A stretch of DNA of 64,000 nt from Candidatus Hydrogenedens sp. (GTDB taxonomy: Bacteria > Hydrogenedentota > Hydrogenedentia > Hydrogenedentales > Hydrogenedentaceae), in the NCBI GenBank assembly GCA_049968235.1, contig JBMFRC010000001.1, positions 160,001 through 224,000 of the forward strand. Reading direction: 5' to 3'. A program made the position numbers and the translations under genes. The notes under the pieces were generated by a model, which worked only from the letters and a program-made list of their open reading frames with translations, was not told where the DNA came from and did not search any database. Positions 3,299-33,325 of this stretch are shown in pieces. The first letter of the stretch is position 1. Every line of letters begins with the position of its first letter.

Positions 3299-5197
3299 TT
3301 ATCGGGAATTATCCACATCACTCACAGACTTTAACATATCACGAACAAGGTCTACCAATTCTTGCCTCACCTGATAAACACCCTGTTTTCCCTCTTTCTT
3401 TGCCCAGCGATAACGCGAGTCCATATCGTTTATTGCACCTATATTTAATGTACCTGCCAGGATACTGGGAGTTTGTTTTTTCTCTGCAAGTTTAATAGAA
3501 ATGGTAAGTGTAATCTCTCCTATTTTTGTTTCATCCTCTTTTTGATTGCTCACATAACCTGCTGTTAAAGTTGACATATAACGAAGTAACCGAAGTAAAT
3601 CGCCCTGATTTGTTAATACTTTATTTTCAGGTTTTTTTATGGTCCATTGCCCATCAATCTGTGAAAACATAAATGATTGAGAATCTATGATAATTCCAAT
3701 TTCTTGAACTTCTGCCGGAGAAAATCGATATAAAAGTAAGCTGCGGAAACTCTCCGGGCGAACCCAGATTTGAGAAATAATTTCTTTTGAAATAATTCCA
3801 ACTTCTCCGGTGTCGTTATTAATGTAAGAGTGCAATTCATCATCAGGAACAGGGACATATCGGATTTCAAAGGTTTTTCCATCTTCCATAGTAAACCGTA
3901 ATATATCTTTTGATTTATTTAATCCTCGTTCTTCCCATGTTCCTCCGGGAAAACTTTGCACCTCTATGTTCTTTAATTTACCCAGATAATCATTTATAGT
4001 TAATACATCAATATCTTCTAACGGGGGGTCAGACATCACCCATCCTTTTTCTTTTGTTTTTTCAAGTATAAATACAGTTTGTTCACCTTCCATTCTTTCT
4101 ATTTTATTTACATTTGTTAGTTCATTTGTAAAAATTTTACGATTTCTAAAACTTTCGGGAGAACGAGGTAATAATTGCAAGAATTGAGGGTCTAATAAAA
4201 AGACAGAGTTCTGTCCTGATAATTTTGCGAAGACACCCGTACATTCCGATAATTTCAATCGTTTTCGTTTTTCTTTATCTTTCTCCTGAGTACTTTGTCC
4301 TGCGGTTTGCACTCCTCCTAAAAATAATGTTTGAGGTTTTTTGTATTTTGCATCCAGATAGGTTAATCGGCATCGAGGAGGGTCTAACCCATAATCAGAC
4401 AAACTTTCAGGATTATCTATAAAGTCTCTTGCAACACCGTATTGTATCTCTGATGCAAGAGCATTTACGGCTTCCTGGTCTGCAAGTCCTTGACTCGGTG
4501 CTATAATTTTCCATGGAGATTTTTCATTTTCCCGTTCCATTATAACCGCAGTGGATTCTTCACCAATTTTGGGCGTGTAATTTGCGTCCTGGATGTTATC
4601 ATCTTCGGTCCATATCCGCGTATATTCGATACGAATCAAAGGAGTTTCTCGCTCTGTAACTAAAAATCGGAATCGCAAATCTTCTAATGAACGATTTAAT
4701 TCAAAAAATTGTTTGTCATCCACTAAAAATACCGACTGTCCATCCATTGTTGTATAACGGTAAGTACTGGTAGGGTCAAGAAGTCCAAAATTTAGTTCTA
4801 TCGGTTCTTTCATTCCATCAATTACCGCTTTAACAGTCAAACTCGGTTTGTCCAGACCGTATGCAGTTTTATCATCCATTTTTGCAACCAGTGTTCTCTG
4901 ATTTTTTAGTTCGGCAAGATTTTTTGCAACCCGTTCCCACATCAATTGAAATGCTGGAATATCCGTAGAGGGTTTTATAAAACACCATTTCCCCTCCGTA
5001 TTTTTTTTAGCGATACATGCGAATTTTCCTGCCTGCTGTATATAAAGTTCGCGGACTGTCTGTGGCTCAAATGAAAAAACCTTCTTTACCTCTTCCCGAA
5101 TCGTTTGTTGCTCTTCCTTTTGCCAATCTAAGAACCAATAGAAAGAAAGGAGACATACCAGAATTATTATCAGAACTATGGTATTACGCCATTTCAC
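3299..5197 (-). CDS. DUF4340-like protein, the terminal gene of the GldG-type ABC operon. It has an N-terminal TM helix.
   Basis: The track ORF is 3299..5284. I prefer a GTG start at 5197 in the same frame. It sits 8 nt after a strong SD (AAGGAGGA) and overlaps the upstream TGA stop by 4 nt (GTGA). The N-terminus then reads VKWRNTIVLIIILVCLL, a TM helix. The position directly after a GldG-like gene is typical for the DUF4340 family. Confidence 0.55.
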   Translation of the reverse strand: MKWRNTIVLIIILVCLLSFYWFLDWQKEEQQTIREEVKKVFSFEPQTVRELYIQQAGKFACIAKKNTEGKWCFIKPSTDIPAFQLMWERVAKNLAELKNQRTLVAKMDDKTAYGLDKPSLTVKAVIDGMKEPIELNFGLLDPTSTYRYTTMDGQSVFLVDDKQFFELNRSLEDLRFRFLVTERETPLIRIEYTRIWTEDDNIQDANYTPKIGEESTAVIMERENEKSPWKIIAPSQGLADQEAVNALASEIQYGVARDFIDNPESLSDYGLDPPRCRLTYLDAKYKKPQTLFLGGVQTAGQSTQEKDKEKRKRLKLSECTGVFAKLSGQNSVFLLDPQFLQLLPRSPESFRNRKIFTNELTNVNKIERMEGEQTVFILEKTKEKGWVMSDPPLEDIDVLTINDYLGKLKNIEVQSFPGGTWEERGLNKSKDILRFTMEDGKTFEIRYVPVPDDELHSYINNDTGEVGIISKEIISQIWVRPESFRSLLLYRFSPAEVQEIGIIIDSQSFMFSQIDGQWTIKKPENKVLTNQGDLLRLLRYMSTLTAGYVSNQKEDETKIGEITLTISIKLAEKKQTPSILAGTLNIGAINDMDSRYRWAKKEGKQGVYQVRQELVDLVRDMLKSVSDVDNSR

Positions 5198-6858
5198 TTT
5201 AATTTCCTCCTTACAAAATAGACAAAAATTCCTGCGAACAAAACAATTTGAGGTGTCATCATCACAGCACACCAGAGCAACCATTGTTTTTGAGTGTTTG
5301 TAAGGACTATCGGTTTGTCTTCCTTTGTTGTCGGACGGATAGCAATAAGTTCATCGTGTTCCGTAAGCCATGCTAAACTATTTAATAGAAAATTAATATG
5401 TCCTCCGATACTAATCCGCTCATTGGTAATAAAATCTGCATCTCCCACGACAACAAAACGGCTTCGTTTTTTCGTTCCATCTGCCTGGTCTTTCGTTCGT
5501 ACTCCTGCTACCGCCACATAAAGTGGTCCTTCTTTCTCACCGGCCTCATACTTCACAGTTCCACCTTCTGCTAACCGAGAGAGGTCTGTTTCTGCCCAAT
5601 AATCGGGTGGTGTCCTGAGTAAAGGGAAAACCTGCAAATTCTCCGGCATTTTTTCAATAGGGTTAACAGTTCGCACTGCTCGCCATAGTAAAGGCTGGTC
5701 CATTCGTTGTGTAATGGGATGGTCAATACGCATGGAACCCCGAAAATCCATAAAGTCTTTTTCTACATTTTCAAAAGGCTGTGGGTCCGAACGGAATTCT
5801 ATTTCCCATGGATTTTTTCGCTGAATTGTAAAAGCAATATCCGAGCCGACATTGATACCCAATTGTTCCTTCAACCATGGACGCAAATTTTCTGCCCCAC
5901 TTTTGCCCAAACGAACACTTATCCATGGTTCAAATAAGATAAAAAGACGGCCCCCTGCATTTAGGAAATTTAAAATGGCATTCAATTCTTCACGGTTCAA
6001 ATCTCCTTTGGGATTATGAATAATAACTGCTTCATAACTTTTGGGAACTTCGGGCAATTCAATACTTATCTGGAAAGGCTCAATTTTATATGTCTCGCCT
6101 TCTATAATCTTTTTCGCTGTAGAAAGCCCGCCCGGACTGGTATCATCAATCGGTGTCTCATCATGTCCTGTTAAATATCCAATTTTTGTTTCGGTCTCTT
6201 TTAATACATTAATTAAAGATTGAGTGAAATCTCGTTCCTCCATGCGCGGATTAGCACCACTCAACATAATAACCCTCTGGCGAGTGCCACATTTTAATAC
6301 AATAGTTCCCTGAGTTGATGCGTGGGTTATTTCCAGTGCTTCCAGACGGGCACGGTCTATTTGCGGGTCCAAAATTTCTATATTTAAAAAGGGTGTATGT
6401 TTTTTACACTGCTCTAAAAAACGAAGGGTTTTATCTCGGGCAATTACCACAGATTCTTCGTCAATATTGATAAAGAAACACAATACTTTTACTTCTTTGT
6501 TGATTGACTGCAAAACTTTAATGGTTTGTGGGGATAATGTTCGACGACCTTCTTCTGTCAGGTCAACGGAAATATCCCATCGCAAGACGAAAGCATATAG
6601 AACTATGCAAATCCCTAAAAAAGTAAGTGTCGAAAGGACTGCATTTAAACCCGAAACAGCACGACCTGACCAACCTGATTCCATCACAATATTCCAGAAA
6701 ACTGTCCCTAACCAGATAATACCTGAAACAACAAAAACTCCTCCCAATAATAAAACCCACAGATTAAAAGCATCCTGCTTCCAAACAACATAATTTAAAA
6801 CAATCAGTAAACTGATGGCAGAAATAATACCGCTATAAGTCTTTAAATACCTTTTCAT
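5194..6858 (-). CDS. gldG: GldG-like ABC-transporter auxiliary protein (ABC-type uncharacterized transport system component)
   Basis: 554 aa with N- and C-terminal TM helices around a large periplasmic domain. It lies directly downstream of an ABC-2 permease and an ATPase. AGGAG sits 11 nt before the ATG. Confidence 0.7.
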   Translation of the reverse strand: MKRYLKTYSGIISAISLLIVLNYVVWKQDAFNLWVLLLGGVFVVSGIIWLGTVFWNIVMESGWSGRAVSGLNAVLSTLTFLGICIVLYAFVLRWDISVDLTEEGRRTLSPQTIKVLQSINKEVKVLCFFINIDEESVVIARDKTLRFLEQCKKHTPFLNIEILDPQIDRARLEALEITHASTQGTIVLKCGTRQRVIMLSGANPRMEERDFTQSLINVLKETETKIGYLTGHDETPIDDTSPGGLSTAKKIIEGETYKIEPFQISIELPEVPKSYEAVIIHNPKGDLNREELNAILNFLNAGGRLFILFEPWISVRLGKSGAENLRPWLKEQLGINVGSDIAFTIQRKNPWEIEFRSDPQPFENVEKDFMDFRGSMRIDHPITQRMDQPLLWRAVRTVNPIEKMPENLQVFPLLRTPPDYWAETDLSRLAEGGTVKYEAGEKEGPLYVAVAGVRTKDQADGTKKRSRFVVVGDADFITNERISIGGHINFLLNSLAWLTEHDELIAIRPTTKEDKPIVLTNTQKQWLLWCAVMMTPQIVLFAGIFVYFVRRKLK

Positions 6859-28431: not shown

Positions 28432-29667
28432 ATGACTAAAAACGTTGGAATTTTTCATCCAAGAAAGAAAACATATTCGGTCCGTGTTCGGAATTGTTTT
28501 ATAGGTGGGGAAGCACCCATTGTTGTTCAAGCAATGACAAATACAAACACGGAAGATGCAGAGGCAACAGCCAGACAGGTAGCAGACTTATTCCAGGCAG
28601 GTGCAGAAATTGTTCGAATTACTGTTAACACACCCTTGTCGGCAAAGAGTGTTCCGGAGATAAGAAAACGACTGGAAGATATGGGGTTAGATGTTCCGTT
28701 AGTAGGAGATTTTCATTATAACGGACATACTTTATTATCTAAATATCCCGAATGTGCTCAGGTTCTCGATAAGTTTCGTATCAATCCGGGAAATGTAGGT
28801 CTCAAAGAAAAAAAAACAACTCATTTCCTTCAAATATGCAAAATTGCAAGGGACTTAAATAAACCCATTCGGATAGGGGTTAACATTGGTTCTCTCGATG
28901 CTGACCTTGTTATCAAGCAAATGGAAATCAATGCAAAATCTACTCATCCTAAAACCAGCAGTGAGATATATGATGAATGTATGGTCCTATCTGCCCTGCA
29001 ATCTGTGGATATGGCACAAAAAGCAGGTTTGAAACCTGAACAAATTGTAATATCCTGCAAAAGTAGTTCACCGATACAATTAATCCGTGTATATCGAAAA
29101 TTATCTGAACGGACACAACAACCACTTCATTTAGGACTAACAGAAGCAGGTTCAGGTATGCGTGGAATTGTCTGGTCATCAACCGCAATGGGAATACTTT
29201 TATCGGAAGGGATAGGTGATACAATTCGTGTGAGTTTAACACCTTCATCAGTAAATGACCGTAGAGAAGAGGTTTATTCCGCACAGGAAATTTTGCAATC
29301 GTTAGGTATTCGTCAATTTGCACCTCAGGTTATATCCTGTCCCGGATGTGGTCGTACTTCCAATCATACCTTTCAGAAAATAGCGGAACAGGTTCAAAAA
29401 TATATACGGGAACATTTACACTACTGGCGTAAAAAGTATAATGGGGTTGAACAAATGAATATTGCTGTTATGGGATGCATCGTCAACGGACCCGGTGAAT
29501 CGCGTTTCGCCAATATAGGGATTAGTTTGCCAGGGAACGGTGAACATCCCCAATGCCCTGTTTACATTGATGGTGAAAAAAGAACTATATTGAGTGGGGA
29601 TGCAGATGAATTAGCAAGCCAATTCATCAAGTTAATCGAAGAATACATTCATACACATTACTTATAG
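28432..29667 (+). CDS. ispG: 4-hydroxy-3-methylbut-2-enyl diphosphate synthase (MEP pathway)
   Basis: GcpE family with the [4Fe-4S] motif SCPGCGRT. Confidence 0.9.
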   Translation: MTKNVGIFHPRKKTYSVRVRNCFIGGEAPIVVQAMTNTNTEDAEATARQVADLFQAGAEIVRITVNTPLSAKSVPEIRKRLEDMGLDVPLVGDFHYNGHTLLSKYPECAQVLDKFRINPGNVGLKEKKTTHFLQICKIARDLNKPIRIGVNIGSLDADLVIKQMEINAKSTHPKTSSEIYDECMVLSALQSVDMAQKAGLKPEQIVISCKSSSPIQLIRVYRKLSERTQQPLHLGLTEAGSGMRGIVWSSTAMGILLSEGIGDTIRVSLTPSSVNDRREEVYSAQEILQSLGIRQFAPQVISCPGCGRTSNHTFQKIAEQVQKYIREHLHYWRKKYNGVEQMNIAVMGCIVNGPGESRFANIGISLPGNGEHPQCPVYIDGEKRTILSGDADELASQFIKLIEEYIHTHYL

Positions 29668-29700
29668 GATTCTGTAACCATTAGGAAATAAGAGTATTTC

Positions 29701-30098
29701 TTAGGCACAAATTTGTTCCTTCATCTTTATAAATTTATCTTTATATAAATAATCAAAAGAAATATCTACATCTACCAGTCCATTTTTGATAAGGTGAGCA
29801 TTTAAAATGTTTTTTTTAGATACAAACACACAAGAAGAATCCCTTCAAAATTATATTTTCTCGTATCATATTTCAGAAATACTTTTTGATTTTTGAGTTT
29901 TTGAGTTAAGAACTTTATTGCATCTTGTTCCTTTTCCCTGTTTGTTTTAACTCCTAATAATCTCACTTTTAAGCCATTATTTAGAATTAATTCTTCCGGA
30001 CTGATAACCTCTTTAACGCTGATGTACTCTTCTCTTGTATATTCATTGTCTATGTCAATTTTAGAGCTGAATTTAAGTAATTTAGGATTGATTTTTTT
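29701..30098 (-). pseudogene. Start-less ORF remnant (about 132 codons) with a staphylococcal-nuclease (SNase/thermonuclease) fold signature
   Basis: My own translation, not in the ORF track: ...EEYISVKEVISPEELILNNGLKVRLLGVKTNREKEQDAIKFLTQKLKNQKVFLKYDTRKYNFEGILLVCLYLKKNILNAHLIKNGLVDV... This aligns to the SNase pattern v.RViDGDTi.v...vRLlGIDaPE...A...l...l.gk.V.l..d..D.YGR.L.yv...n.eLv..GlA.v. The Ca-binding and catalytic residues are substituted (DGDT to SPEE, DAPE to KTNRE). There is no ATG, GTG or TTG between the upstream in-frame stop and the body. Coordinates are accurate to about 2 nt. Confidence 0.4.
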
Positions 30099-30151
30099 TC
30101 AAAATGAACAGGGTCTTTAAATATATATGGTAATTTTTCAATTTCATTATC

Positions 30152-30927
30152 CTAATTTCCATCTAATACATTTCGATAAAAGATTTCAAAATCGGCTTCT
30201 GAAAATAACAAGTTTTTCTCAATGCCGAGTTTGTCTTTGATAATAGGGAAAATTTCCTTATTTATTTCATATCTAACTGAATTGCAGAATAAGTGTTTTG
30301 CAGATAAAATAGTTGTTCCACTCCCTAAAAAAGGGTCTAATACAGTGTCCCCGATAAAACTGAACATTTTTATTAATCGTTTTGGTAATTCTTCGGGAAA
30401 CATTGCCAAATGTTCCGTCTGTTTTTCCCCGTTAAAATTCCAGTGTCCAGAAAAGTATTTGTTCCATTCTTCTTTACTTAATTTTATTTCTTTAGGCACA
30501 GACGGAGGATTGCCCGGTTTTTTGAACACCAGTATAAATTCATAGTCTATTTTGATAATCCCATTCCTTGGATAGGGATAACTTCCCATCACAGAAGTAC
30601 TGCCAGTAGTATTCATCGTTGTGGGTTTCTGCCATATAATTGCCCCCATATAATCAAAACCAATAGTTTCGCAAAATTTTATAATTTCAGTTCGTATTGG
30701 GATAATCTTATACCTGCCATAATATATTGGTCATCCACATTTATACACAATCGACAGCCATCTTGTAATACTCTATAACATTCATTCCATACCAGATTAA
30801 GATAATTGATGTATTTTTCGTAAGAGTCATTAAAACCAATCTGTTGTTCTACTCCATAATCTTTCAATTGCCAATAGGGAGGAGAAGTTATGATAAGATG
30901 AATGCTTTTATCCTGGATTTCATTCAT
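30152..30927 (-). pseudogene. N-4/N-6 DNA methyltransferase (PF01555-type, motif IV before motif I), split into two ORFs by a frameshift
   Basis: The N-fragment (30679..30927) carries IITSPPYWQLKDY. The C-fragment (30152..30649, open in frame up to about 30731) carries VLDPFLGSGTT and ...ETIGFDYMGAIIWQKP. The two frames overlap around 30680-30731. There is no homopolymer at the junction. Confidence 0.7.
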
Positions 30928-31038
30928 CTTCGTAAATCACCGATAATGATTTTTGAAATGTTTTCATAGGAATTATTTTTTGTTCAACGGAATTGTTGTA
31001 TCAGATATATTATAAGACACCTGTAAAACAAATGACAT

Positions 31039-32124
31039 TTATCTTGTTGGACTATTAACAATCTCTTTCCATGCGGAGGTTGGTTGTTCTTTGAATTGAG
31101 TTTCGTTTATAGGGTAGATAAAAAGGGCAGGGATGTGTTTTTCTTCGGCGAAGCGAAATGCTTTTTCTTTTCCCATGACCATGAAAGCAGTGGCGTAGGC
31201 ATCTGCATAGGCACAAGTGGGATGAATAACACTAACAGAAGCGATAGTATTCGGTACAGGATAACCTGTATGCGGGTCTATTTCATGGGAATATTTCTTC
31301 CCTTCCCAGAAGTAAAAATTTCGATAGTTTCCGGAGGTTGCCATTGCCAGGTCTTTGAGTTTTATTGCAAGAAAGGTAGAATGCTCCATAGAAACCGGCC
31401 TCTCAATTCCGATGTTCCACAAATTCCCGGGGATTTTCTCTCCTTTCACACGCACTTCCCCACCAACTTCTATCATATAACTATTGAAAGAGTTTTGGTC
31501 TAATAGTTCTGCTACCTTATCGACTGCATATCCTTTGGCAACTGCAGAAAAATCACACTGTATTTCGGGGTTATGTTTTTTTATTCCTTCGGGGAGAATT
31601 TCTATTTTTTGATAATCTACTTTCATTTTAGCATCTTCAATCTGTTCTCTTGTTGGGGGTTGGTCAACAAGTTTCGGTCCAAATCCCCAAATTTGAACAA
31701 GAGGAAAAACGGTAATGTCAAGTGCTCCACCTGTCTGCCGGGCTATTTCAAGAGAAATTTCAAACACCTCTCGTGTCTCTGGAGAAACAGGGAAAGGTAG
31801 ATCGTCTTTATACTGATTAAAACGACTTAACTCCGAATCGGAGTTATAGGTGGACATTAAATTATCTATTTTTGAGAGGCAGTTATGGATTTTTTCACCA
31901 ATACCTTCCGGGAGAATTTCCCCCCGGGGTAAAACAATTTTAACCTGATAAGTTGTCCCCATAGTATTGCCTGAAAAAGAAAAAATACTATACGGAGGGA
32001 CTTTTGTTGAACAGGAAATAAGAAGGCAGAGTATAAATAAAACTTCTCCCCATCGCAGGATGGGAAGAAGTTTTTTATTATTCTTACGAATATATCTGTG
32101 ATTATCCAAAGTTATCGTAAGCAA
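31039..32124 (-). CDS. apbE: FAD:protein FMN transferase (flavin transferase for NqrB/NqrC). It is a predicted lipoprotein.
   Basis: ApbE family. The lipobox is LLISCSTK. It is the last gene of the nqr operon and its start overlaps the nqrF stop. Confidence 0.8.
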
Positions 32125-33325
32125 TCATATCATCCTCCACACCTAAACTGTGAAGCATGTTCAGACATGCGGACAACATAAGAGGAGGTCCGCAAATATA
32201 GTATTCAATATCTTCCGGTGCGGGATGGTTCTTCAAGTATTCATCATGTAAAACTTGATGAATAAAGCCTGTTAGTCCTGTCCAGTTATCTTCGGGCAAT
32301 GGTTCGGAAAGGGCAATATGCCAGCGGAAATTTTCATTCTCTCTTTGTATCATATTAAAATCATCTTCATAGAAGATTTCTCGCTTGCTTCTTGCACCAT
32401 ACCAGAAGGTTACCTTACGCTTTGTTTTCAGCCGTTTGAACTGGTCAAAGATATGAGAACGCATAGGAGCCATACCGGCACCACCACCAATAAAACACAT
32501 TTCTCGATTGGTTTCTTTCGCAAAGAATTCACCGAAGGGACCGGAGATAGTAACCTCATCACCGGGTTTTAAACTGAAAATATAGGAAGACATAATTCCG
32601 GGCGGTATTCCTTTTGCATTCGGTGGGGGTAATGCAATACGAACATTGAGCATAATAATCCCTTTTTCATCGGGATAATTTGCCATTGAATAGGCACGCG
32701 TTACATGTTCATCATTAACTGCAGTAATGTCCCATAATTTAAATTTATCCCACACATCACGGAATTGAGGTTCAATATCAAAATCTTTGTAGGAAATTTT
32801 ATAAGGTGGGCATTGAATCTGAATGTAGCCACCAGCACGGAACGGAACTTCTTCTCCTTCCGGCAATTGTAGTACCAATTCTTTGATAAAGGTTGCTACA
32901 CTGCGGTTGGATTTTACTTTACATTTCCACTGGCGAACTTCAAAAATTTCCGGAGGCAATTCAATCTTCATGTCTTGCTTGACTTTTACCTGACAGGCAA
33001 GACGGTAACCTTTCTTGGCTAAACCGCGATTAATATGCGTTTGCTCCGTAGGAAGCAGTGCCCCTCCACCTTCTTTAACAACTACTTTGCAAACACCACA
33101 ACTTCCTTTCCCTCCACAGGCAGAAGGAATAAATATTTTCTGGTTTGCAAGGGTGTTTAAAAGAGTCCCTCCGACAGGAGCACTTAATGCTTTGTTGGGG
33201 TCATCATTAACGATAATTTTTACGCTACCTGAGGCTACTAATTTTGCTTTTGCAATCATCAGTAAGATAGCCAGCGTTAACACAATTAATGAGAACATTA
33301 ACATTCCAAGCAATACCGTTTGCAT
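32102..33325 (-). CDS. nqrF: Na+-translocating NADH-quinone reductase subunit F
   Basis: N-terminal TM helix. The 2Fe-2S ferredoxin motif is [12 protein letters not shown]. An FAD/NAD-binding domain follows. Confidence 0.9.

What the first reader, a model, noticed from the sequence alone, without database searches (positions are those of the whole stretch)
29690..30930. Decayed restriction-modification or mobile module: frameshifted N4/N6 DNA methyltransferase plus a hidden start-less SNase-fold ORF
- The methyltransferase carries motif IV (SPPY) in one ORF and motif I (FLGSGTT) in another. The two frames overlap by about 50 nt, so a single indel has split it.
- Immediately 3' on the same strand is an open frame of about 132 codons that the ORF track misses. 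It has no ATG, GTG or TTG start.
- The translation of this frame threads convincingly onto the staphylococcal-nuclease fold (V.EVIS.EELIL..GLKVRLLGV...A..FL...L....V.L..D......G.LL.Y.Y......N..LI..G...V). The metal-binding and catalytic residues are replaced.
- A methyltransferase paired with an SNase-like partner between ispG and the nqr operon has no cognate intact endonuclease. That fits a relic of an R-M or ParB/MTase-type mobile cargo.
- The pseudogenisation of both genes is itself informative. It points to an orphan methyltransferase being lost after toxin loss.
Basis: partly seen in the sequence, partly recalled or inferred. Interest (0 to 1): 0.6.

Follow-up and report, generated by a model that had tools for sequence, protein, structure and literature searches.

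The report
Dead remnant of CTAG restriction-modification system
The region holds one broken gene, not two: a DNA methyltransferase with a built-in nuclease-like tail, left over from a CTAG-type restriction-modification system whose cutting enzyme has been deleted. This is an ordinary case of gene decay.

Summary
The sequence features are real, but they belong to a single gene. Window 30967-29701 (minus strand) is collinear, across four reading-frame pieces, with one intact 432-aa protein of a related Candidatus Hydrogenedens genome (P0092; 85% aa, 84% nt identity). That protein is a beta-class N4/N6 DNA methyltransferase (PF01555) with a C-terminal SNase-fold domain.

In the relative the gene lies at the same place, next to apbE/nqrF. 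It is followed by an overlapping MjaI-family (CTAG) restriction endonuclease gene (PF09568).

In the window, homology stops 5 nt after the methyltransferase stop codon. The endonuclease gene is absent and the 3' end of ispG abuts instead.

The methyltransferase carries five frameshifting deletions (-1, -1, -13, -1, -4), one TGG->TAG nonsense codon and an in-frame 12-nt deletion. Twelve of 158 family-invariant residues are replaced or deleted. Two other assemblies carry the same lesions, so these are not assembly errors.

The SNase fold is confirmed (Foldseek E 2e-7, TM about 0.7). Its canonical catalytic residues are absent across the whole family, so it is probably a non-catalytic accessory domain.

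The R-M relic reading is supported. The "two genes", "single indel" and ParB readings are not. Interest is low.

The parts
29701..30967 (-). Whole pseudogene: MjaI/MthZI-type beta-class DNA methyltransferase fused to a C-terminal SNase-like domain. ATG at 30967-30965, TAA at 29703-29701.
   Evidence: Collinear with the intact 432-aa P0092 gene in L088 at 84% nt identity. tblastn against the L003 homologue gives four collinear pieces in three frames.
30155..30967 (-). Methyltransferase domain remnant (PF01555). Motif IV SPPY lies in ORF 30927-30679 and motif I FLGSGTT in ORF 30649-30152.
   Evidence: The joined translation matches PF01555 at E 4.4e-43 over profile positions 1-220 of 221. ORFs.
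30953..30954 (-). 1-nt deletion (frameshift 1), five codons after the ATG.
   Evidence: Pairwise alignment with L088.
30930..30931 (-). 1-nt deletion (frameshift 2), between GD and TKMNEI.
30726..30727 (-). 13-nt deletion (frameshift 3). It removes the invariant R84 and S85.
30485..30486 (-). In-frame 12-nt deletion (KEKS, including the invariant S170).
30152..30154 (-). Nonsense codon TAG where the family has TGG (W281).
30021..30151 (-). Conserved linker (EKLPYIFKDPVHFEKKINPKLLKFSSKID), carrying a 1-nt deletion at about 30098-30099 (frameshift 4).
29704..30020 (-). SNase-fold C-terminal domain remnant, broken by a 4-nt deletion at about 29807-29808 (frameshift 5).
   Evidence: Homologues at E 1.4e-37. 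The AF2 model of homologue P0001 matches SNase structures (E 2e-7, TM 0.66-0.73). Deletion.
29668..29700 (.). 33-nt spacer and rearrangement breakpoint. Homology to L088 ends at about 29696, where the MjaI-family endonuclease gene begins in the relative.
   Evidence: No R.MjaI homologue anywhere in the window (best tblastn E 0.73).
28432..29667 (+). ispG (flank, convergent with the pseudogene).
   Evidence: PF04551/PF26540.
31039..32124 (-). apbE (flank, syntenic with L088), followed by nqrF at 32102-33325.
   Evidence: PF02424. 83% nt identity to L088.

Best explanation
Window 30967-29701 (minus strand) is one dead gene. It is the methyltransferase subunit of an MjaI/MthZI-type Type II restriction-modification system. 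The protein was a beta-class N4/N6 MTase domain joined by a conserved linker to a non-catalytic SNase-fold domain.

In the ancestor of this Hydrogenedens lineage, a low-GC, horizontally acquired M->R operon sat next to apbE. M presumably made m4C at CTAG and protected the chromosome from the co-transcribed MjaI-family endonuclease. This specificity is inferred from characterised relatives.

In the window's lineage, a deletion or rearrangement with a breakpoint about 5 nt past the M stop codon removed R and brought the 3' end of ispG alongside. Once R was gone, M was under no selection. It accumulated five frameshifting deletions, a nonsense codon, an in-frame deletion and replacements of invariant residues. 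It now makes no functional product.

Shown: the single-gene architecture, the lesions, the synteny, the absence of R and the SNase fold.
Inferred: CTAG/m4C specificity, the order of events (R first), and the non-catalytic role of the SNase-like domain.
For: - One-gene architecture: more than 100 intact homologues of 412-443 aa carry PF01555 plus PF00565. 78 of 80 metagenome loci encode it as a single uninterrupted frame.
- Synteny: L088 (Ca. Hydrogenedens GCA_020216745.1) has nqrF-apbE-M(432 aa)-R(PF09568, E 5.5e-45). Window 33397-29696 aligns to L088 1-3739 at 84% nt identity and then stops.
- Lesions are mapped base by base.
- The same sequence occurs in two other assemblies, one identical and one with 1 mismatch in 1371 nt.
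- Decay signals: 12 of 158 invariant columns are violated, against a mean of 0.58 (max 6) for intact members. The window branch has 26-33 unique amino-acid changes against 10-15 in the sister P0092.
- R is absent from the whole window.
- R follows M in 57 of 68 informative metagenome loci.
- The MTase domain is 35% identical (E 3e-43) to M.MthZI of pFZ1, which is encoded next to an annotated MjaI-family endonuclease. PMC5867850 describes M.MthZI as an experimentally characterised 4mC CTAG MTase.
- The M and R genes are a low-GC island: 30.5-30.8% against about 40% in the flanks.
- SNase fold.
- Catalytic-residue mapping: D40->K, R87 variable, E43 not conserved.
Against: - dN/dS against the intact orthologue is still low (0.076, against 0.12 for apbE). 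Most of the divergence therefore accrued under selection, and inactivation must be recent. The number of indels is high for so short a neutral period.
- The former presence of R at this exact locus in the window's own ancestor rests on parsimony: the sister locus plus family-wide M-R linkage. No R remnant survives beyond the bases that overlap the M coding sequence.
- The next closest genome with ispG (L007, 78% IspG identity) is not syntenic. No empty-site or intermediate state was seen.
- CTAG specificity was not measured for any fused member.
Confidence: 0.9

Rival explanations
1. There are two separate genes: a frameshifted methyltransferase and an independent start-less SNase-like nuclease partner (toxin or restriction subunit), both pseudogenised.
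For: - A stop codon (30154-30152) and a frame change separate the two parts in the window.
- Some database entries are SNase-only fragments annotated 'thermonuclease family protein'.
Against: - In more than 100 intact homologues the two parts are one 412-443-aa polypeptide with a conserved linker.
- The stop aligns to a conserved Trp codon, TGG->TAG.
- The SNase-only hits are contig-end or split fragments.
- The real nuclease partner in relatives is an MjaI-family REase.
- SNase catalytic residues are not conserved in the family.
Confidence: 0.03
2. The gene is intact in the organism and the frameshifts are sequencing or assembly errors.
For: Two of the 1-nt deletions lie next to homopolymer runs: the A-run at about 30099 and an A-run at about 30931.
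Against: - The lesions include 13-nt and 4-nt deletions and a G->A nonsense substitution, which are not homopolymer errors.
- The same sequence is found in two other MAG assemblies.
- 12 invariant residues are replaced or deleted.
- The endonuclease gene is missing altogether.
Confidence: 0.02
3. The methyltransferase is functional but phase-variable or recoded, and is expressed through slippage at homopolymer tracts or programmed frameshifting.
For: An A8 tract coincides with one frameshift (about 30099). Phase-variable MTases with simple repeats are well known (general knowledge).
Against: - Six independent disabling lesions of different kinds would all need correction.
- Intact homologues have no such tracts as obligatory features: 78 of 80 loci are a single frame.
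- Invariant catalytic-region residues are lost, for example G79->D in the IGDQF motif and R84/S85 deleted.
Confidence: 0.02
4. M was always an orphan at this locus in the window's lineage. R was never present here, or was added later in the L088 lineage, and M decayed as an unneeded orphan.
For: - 11 of 68 informative loci carry the fused M without a detectable R, so orphans of this family exist.
- No R-specific remnant survives in the window.
Against: - In L088, M and R overlap by 8 nt and share the same low GC (30.6 and 30.8%). That fits acquisition as one unit.
- The more distant P0096 locus (L089) also has the M-R pair.
- Homology between the window and L088 ends exactly at the M/R boundary. 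This looks like a breakpoint and not an insertion of R plus several kb of unrelated genes.
Confidence: 0.08

Closest known systems
MthZI restriction-modification system of Methanothermobacter plasmid pFZ1 (CTAG; M.MthZI, 355 aa, m4C)
   Same: - The beta-class PF01555 MTase domain is 35% identical over residues 1-256 of the intact orthologue (E 3e-43).
- The partner endonuclease is in the same Pfam family, PF09568 (26% identity, E 5e-10).
   Different: - M.MthZI has no SNase-like C-terminal domain and no conserved linker.
- M and R are convergent in pFZ1 but co-directional and overlapping here.
- The window copy is a pseudogene without R.
MjaI system of Methanocaldococcus jannaschii (MJ0984/MJ0985; CTAG)
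   Same: - The endonuclease family is named after it (PF09568).
- R uses a GTG start, as reported for MjaI and MthZI (PMC2615612), and so does the R gene of L088.
   Different: - According to PMC5867850, the characterised M.MjaI, M.BfaI and M.MthZI are 303-364 aa, shorter than the 426-439-aa fused family.
- No direct sequence comparison with M.MjaI was possible here.
HVO_0794, orphan CTAG m4C methyltransferase of Haloferax volcanii (PMC5867850)
   Same: It is a CTAG-type beta-class MTase that persists without a cognate endonuclease. This is the orphan stage the window's gene probably passed through.
   Different: HVO_0794 is intact and active and has no SNase-like domain. The window's gene is dead.
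Staphylococcal nuclease and catalytically inactive SN domains (for example Tudor-SN)
   Same: - Same fold (Foldseek E 2e-7, TM 0.66-0.73, rmsd 2.2-2.6 A).
- The R35 equivalent is kept and D21 is replaced by Glu.
- As in eTudor SN domains, catalytic residues are mutated (PMC7641849 for eTudor).
   Different: - D40->K, R87 is variable and E43 is not conserved.
- The domain is fused to a DNA methyltransferase.
- No nuclease role is expected.

Membership tests
MjaI/MthZI-type Type II R-M system (CTAG) | Beta-class N4/N6 MTase (PF01555) with motif IV (S/DPPY) N-terminal to motif I (FxGxG) | tested here: met
   The reconstructed translation matches PF01555 at E 4.4e-43 over the full profile, with SPPY upstream of FLGSGTT.
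MjaI/MthZI-type Type II R-M system (CTAG) | Sequence relationship to an experimentally characterised CTAG MTase | tested here: met
   The orthologue P0092 (85% identical to the window's reconstruction) is 35% identical to M.MthZI (E 3e-43). M.MthZI is characterised as a 4mC CTAG MTase according to PMC5867850.
MjaI/MthZI-type Type II R-M system (CTAG) | Adjacent MjaI-family endonuclease gene (PF09568) | tested here: not met
   No homologue in the 64-kb window (best tblastn E 0.73). It is present in the syntenic relative L088 (E 5.5e-45) and in 57 of 68 informative metagenome loci.
MjaI/MthZI-type Type II R-M system (CTAG) | Intact, translatable MTase gene | tested here: not met
   Five frameshifting deletions plus a TAG nonsense codon.
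MjaI/MthZI-type Type II R-M system (CTAG) | m4C methylation and cleavage at CTAG | not testable with these tools
   Inferred only from family membership. CTAG observed/expected is 0.13 in the window, which is compatible but not specific.
Staphylococcal nuclease / thermonuclease (PF00565) | SNase (OB-type) fold | tested here: met
   AF2 model of homologue P0001 has pLDDT 80. The top 50 Foldseek PDB hits are all SNase (E about 2e-7, TM 0.66-0.73).
Staphylococcal nuclease / thermonuclease (PF00565) | Pfam gathering score (21 bits) | tested here: inconclusive
   The window's reconstruction scores 19.9 bits, below the cut-off. Intact homologues score 22.4-37 bits, above it.
Staphylococcal nuclease / thermonuclease (PF00565) | Ca2+-binding and catalytic residues D21, D40, T41, R35, E43, R87 | tested here: not met
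   Profile alignments map D40->K, T41->E/T, R87->variable and E43 to a non-conserved position. Only the R35 equivalent and an acidic residue at D21 are kept. The N-terminal part of the alignment has low confidence.
ParB-MTase mobile cargo | ParB-like nuclease domain fused to or adjacent to the MTase | tested here: not met
   No ParB family among the Pfam hits of the window's translations or of the intact orthologues.
Phase-variable methyltransferase (phasevarion) | A single reversible simple-sequence-repeat frameshift in an otherwise intact gene | tested here: not met
   Six independent lesions, including 13-nt and 4-nt deletions and a nonsense codon.

The most novel reading that the evidence does not exclude
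The interest lies in the intact family the pseudogene belongs to, not in the pseudogene itself. A large subfamily of CTAG-type methyltransferases is very highly conserved: mean column identity is 81% across 55 members whose source names span Hydrogenedens, WOR-3, Verrucomicrobiia, Bacteroidia and Thermodesulfovibrionia. These proteins carry a conserved, predicted-disordered linker motif (KLPYxFKDPxxFDKKIDPKKLxFGSKID) and a catalytically degenerate SNase-fold domain. The characterised M.MthZI lacks this extension, and M.MjaI and M.BfaI are reported at sizes too short to hold it. I found no paper describing it. The module could be a new DNA-clamping or target-recognition element. It could also be a device that couples M to its MjaI-family endonuclease.
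Probability: 0.4. Interest if true: 0.35.

Novelty: new member of a known kind. Interest (0 to 1): 0.18.

Why it matters
The window adds one well-documented example of the usual life cycle of a restriction-modification system. The steps are horizontal acquisition, loss of the endonuclease, an orphan methyltransferase stage and then pseudogenisation. An intact syntenic sister locus dates and maps every lesion.

For annotation, ORFs 30927-30679, 30649-30152, 29966-29802 and 29829-29701 should be merged into one pseudogene. They should not be called as methyltransferase or nuclease genes.

The only wider point is that the SNase-like extension of this abundant CTAG-methyltransferase subfamily is uncharacterised.

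Tried and rejected
- **"All family members are split."** Searching with the SNase part alone returned only fragments of 233 aa or less. P0041 proved to be split by an in-frame TAG inside a CTAG site. For a while this suggested a conserved recoding or split architecture. A search with the full reconstruction found more than 100 intact 412-443-aa proteins, and 78 of 80 metagenome loci are a single frame. The pattern was an artefact of the word index plus one independently decaying copy.
- **Looking for the empty or ancestral ispG/apbE junction.** The genome-contig scan with IspG gave only one Hydrogenedens relative (L007, 78%). It is not syntenic downstream of ispG, so it is uninformative. The informative relative (L088) came from the methyltransferase itself.
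- **dN/dS as evidence of decay.** The value is low (0.076), so it does not show relaxation on its own. The relative-rate test and the invariant-column count do.
- **Literature.** Searches for a described MTase-SNase fusion found nothing relevant.
- **CTAG depletion as evidence of past MjaI-type restriction.** It is real (O/E 0.13) but not specific. Five other 4-bp palindromes are depleted to a similar or greater degree.

Full report
**What is in the sequence.** The genes of the finding lie on the minus strand, between ispG (28432-29667, +; PF04551) and apbE (31039-32124, -; PF02424). apbE is followed by nqrF-nqrA.
- ORF 30927-30679 contains SPPY and ORF 30649-30152 contains FLGSGTT.
- Joined, they match PF01555 over the whole profile (E 4.4e-43).
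- Downstream, a frame reading KKINPKLLKFSSKID...LYLKKTF and a second frame reading NILNAHLIKNGLVDVD...EQICA* together resemble SNase only weakly on their own (PF00565, 19.9 bits, below the 21-bit cut-off).
- The joined frames nevertheless have strong homologues (E 1.4e-37, 59% identity). Many of those also carry PF01555.

**One gene, not two.** A search with the full conceptual translation found more than 100 intact proteins of 412-443 aa with PF01555 plus PF00565.
- The best hit is P0092: 432 aa, 85% identical, from a Candidatus Hydrogenedens MAG.
- The window's sequence is collinear with such proteins in four pieces over three frames.
- The 'SNase-like partner' is therefore the C-terminal domain of the methyltransferase. 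It is joined by a conserved linker (KLPYIFKDP..FDKKI.PK.LKFGSKID).
- An early impression that every family member is split (one search returned only fragments of 233 aa or less) was an artefact of the word-indexed search. In addition, 78 of 80 metagenome loci encode the protein in one frame.

**The syntenic intact copy and the missing endonuclease.**
- In L088 (GCA_020216745.1) the order is nqrF - apbE - M (432 aa) - R (210 aa). R matches PF09568 RE_MjaI (E 5.5e-45) and has a GTG start overlapping the end of M by 8 nt. Unrelated genes follow.
- Window 33397-29696 aligns to L088 1-3739 in a single 84%-identical block. The block ends 5 nt after the M stop codon.
- Beyond that point the window has a 33-nt spacer and the 3' end of ispG.
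- No MjaI-family homologue exists anywhere in the 64-kb window (best tblastn E 0.73).
- The more distant homologues P0096 (L089) and P0041 (L003) also have R immediately downstream.
- Among 68 metagenome loci with enough downstream sequence, 57 have an MjaI-family gene just after M on the same strand.
- In L088, M and R share 30.6-30.8% GC against about 40% for their neighbours. The window's pseudogene has 30.5% GC. This marks a horizontally acquired island.

**The lesions.** The base-by-base alignment with L088 gives the following:

| Feature | Window position | Notes |
|---|---|---|
| Start ATG retained | 30967-30965 | |
| 1-nt deletion | about 30954 | frameshift |
| 1-nt deletion | about 30931 | frameshift |
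| 12-nt deletion | about 30486 | in frame |
| TGG->TAG | 30154-30152 | nonsense |
| 1-nt deletion | about 30099 | frameshift |
| 4-nt deletion | about 29808 | frameshift |
| Stop TAA | 29703-29701 | |

- The same sequence occurs in two other assemblies. GCA_049969095.1 is identical over 1371 nt and GCA_049971155.1 has 1 mismatch. Together with the multi-base deletions, this rules out assembly error.
- Twelve of 158 family-invariant columns are replaced or deleted in the window, for example G79D, G128S, R237C, G241R, G310S and Y390C. Intact members violate 0.58 on average, with a maximum of 6.
- With an outgroup, the window branch has 26-33 unique amino-acid changes against 10-15 for P0092. By my own binomial estimate this gives p of about 0.002-0.06, depending on the outgroup.
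- Overall dN/dS against L088 is still low: 0.076, compared with 0.12 for apbE and 0.015 for nqrF, at dS of about 0.8-1.0. Inactivation is therefore recent relative to the split of the two lineages. As a rough inference, it falls within the last few per cent of the divergence.

**What the system was.**
- The MTase domain of P0092 is 35% identical (E 3e-43) to M.MthZI of plasmid pFZ1. That gene lies next to an annotated MjaI-family endonuclease.
- M.MthZI is an experimentally characterised 4mC CTAG methyltransferase. M.MjaI and M.BfaI are listed as characterised CTAG m4C beta-class enzymes of 303-364 aa (PMC5867850).
- MjaI is a CTAG-specific endonuclease with a GTG start (PMC2615612).
- The L088 R protein is 26% identical to the pFZ1 enzyme (E 5e-10).
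- The ancestral locus was therefore most probably a CTAG-specific Type II R-M operon. Specificity is inferred, not measured.
- CTAG is strongly depleted in the window (10 observed against 79 expected). GATC, AGCT, GGCC, ACGT and GCGC are depleted too, so this is not specific evidence.

**The SNase-like domain.**
- An AlphaFold2 model of homologue P0001 (pLDDT 80) matches staphylococcal nuclease structures. The top 50 Foldseek hits are all SNase (E about 2e-7, TM 0.66-0.73, rmsd 2.2-2.6 A).
- A profile of 33 domain sequences finds SNase chains in the PDB at E 7.5e-4.
- Profile alignments map SNase R35 to a conserved R/K and D21 to a nearly invariant Glu. D40 maps to Lys, T41 to Glu/Thr, R87 to a variable position, and E43 to a non-conserved position.
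It is a property of the whole intact family, not a sign of decay.
- The domain is most likely a non-catalytic nucleic-acid-binding or structural module. This is an inference.
- In a full-length model of P0092, the two domains are confident. The conserved linker (residues 298-321, with invariant K301, P304, F309, G310, S311 and D314) is predicted to be disordered.

**Most likely history and mechanism.**
- Shown: a low-GC M->R operon lies next to apbE in the sister lineage, the same M lies next to apbE in the window, R is absent, and M is disabled many times over.
- Inferred: R was lost first, or together with the rearrangement that brought ispG alongside. Loss of M while R is active is lethal, by the general principle of post-segregational killing by R-M systems.
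- Inferred: M then persisted briefly as an orphan and decayed once it was no longer needed.
- Orphan and half-decayed stages of the same family exist elsewhere. Eleven of 68 loci have M without R, and four have only R fragments (L138, L140, L143, L150). In L003 both M (TAG) and R (TGA) carry one nonsense codon each.

**Rivals considered.**
- Two separate genes: contradicted by the fused architecture.
- Assembly error: contradicted by the lesion types and by three concordant assemblies.
- Phase variation or programmed frameshifting: contradicted by six heterogeneous lesions and the loss of invariant residues.
- M was always an orphan here: possible but unparsimonious, given the overlapping M-R pair of equal GC at the same locus in the sister lineage.

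**Verdict.** This is a single pseudogenised fused methyltransferase of an MjaI/MthZI-type system, with the endonuclease deleted. It is an ordinary outcome and of low interest. The only open question it points to is the role of the SNase-like extension in the intact family. I found no literature on that extension.

Noticed in passing
window 1-64000: Several 4-bp palindromes are strongly avoided relative to a trinucleotide Markov expectation: GATC 10 observed / 186 expected, CTAG 10/79, AGCT 16/102, GGCC 15/80, ACGT 20/97, GCGC 13/48. CCGG, AATT and TTAA are at expectation. This suggests long exposure of the lineage to many 4-cutter R-M systems.
   Followed up: partly
L003 4380-6424: A different organism carries a second, independently decaying MjaI-like system. 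The fused M gene has one in-frame TAG (4983-4985, inside CGCTAGAAC, where the window has CAG). The downstream MjaI-family R gene has one in-frame TGA (6194-6196). The same sequence was seen on 7 contigs from several samples.
   Followed up: partly
L093-L172 (metagenome loci of the intact family): In 57 of 68 loci with at least 650 nt downstream, an MjaI-family endonuclease gene follows the fused methyltransferase on the same strand. Eleven loci have none: L096, L100, L101, L108, L114, L139, L142, L146, L160, L168 and L170. L138, L140, L143 and L150 keep only fragments of R. These are orphan-M intermediates.
   Followed up: partly
P0092 residues 288-321 (= window about 30130-30021, minus strand): The linker between the MTase and SNase-like domains carries family-invariant residues (L288, Y290, F292, D294, P295, K301, P304, F309, G310, S311, D314). 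AlphaFold2 nevertheless predicts residues 298-321 as disordered (pLDDT below 50). Three invariant loops of the MTase domain (82-93, 119-145, 185-203) behave the same way. They may order on DNA or on a partner.
   Followed up: no
window 29600-30350: GC drops to 26-28% against about 40% in the flanking genes. The intact M and R genes in L088 show the same low GC of 30.6-30.8%. This is a compositional signature of horizontal acquisition.
   Followed up: yes
L007 4445-7539: The nearest genome contigs relative by IspG (Candidatus Hydrogenedens sp., 78% identity) has a different gene (619 aa, + strand) downstream of ispG and maf upstream. The ispG neighbourhood is therefore not conserved within the group.
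   Followed up: partly
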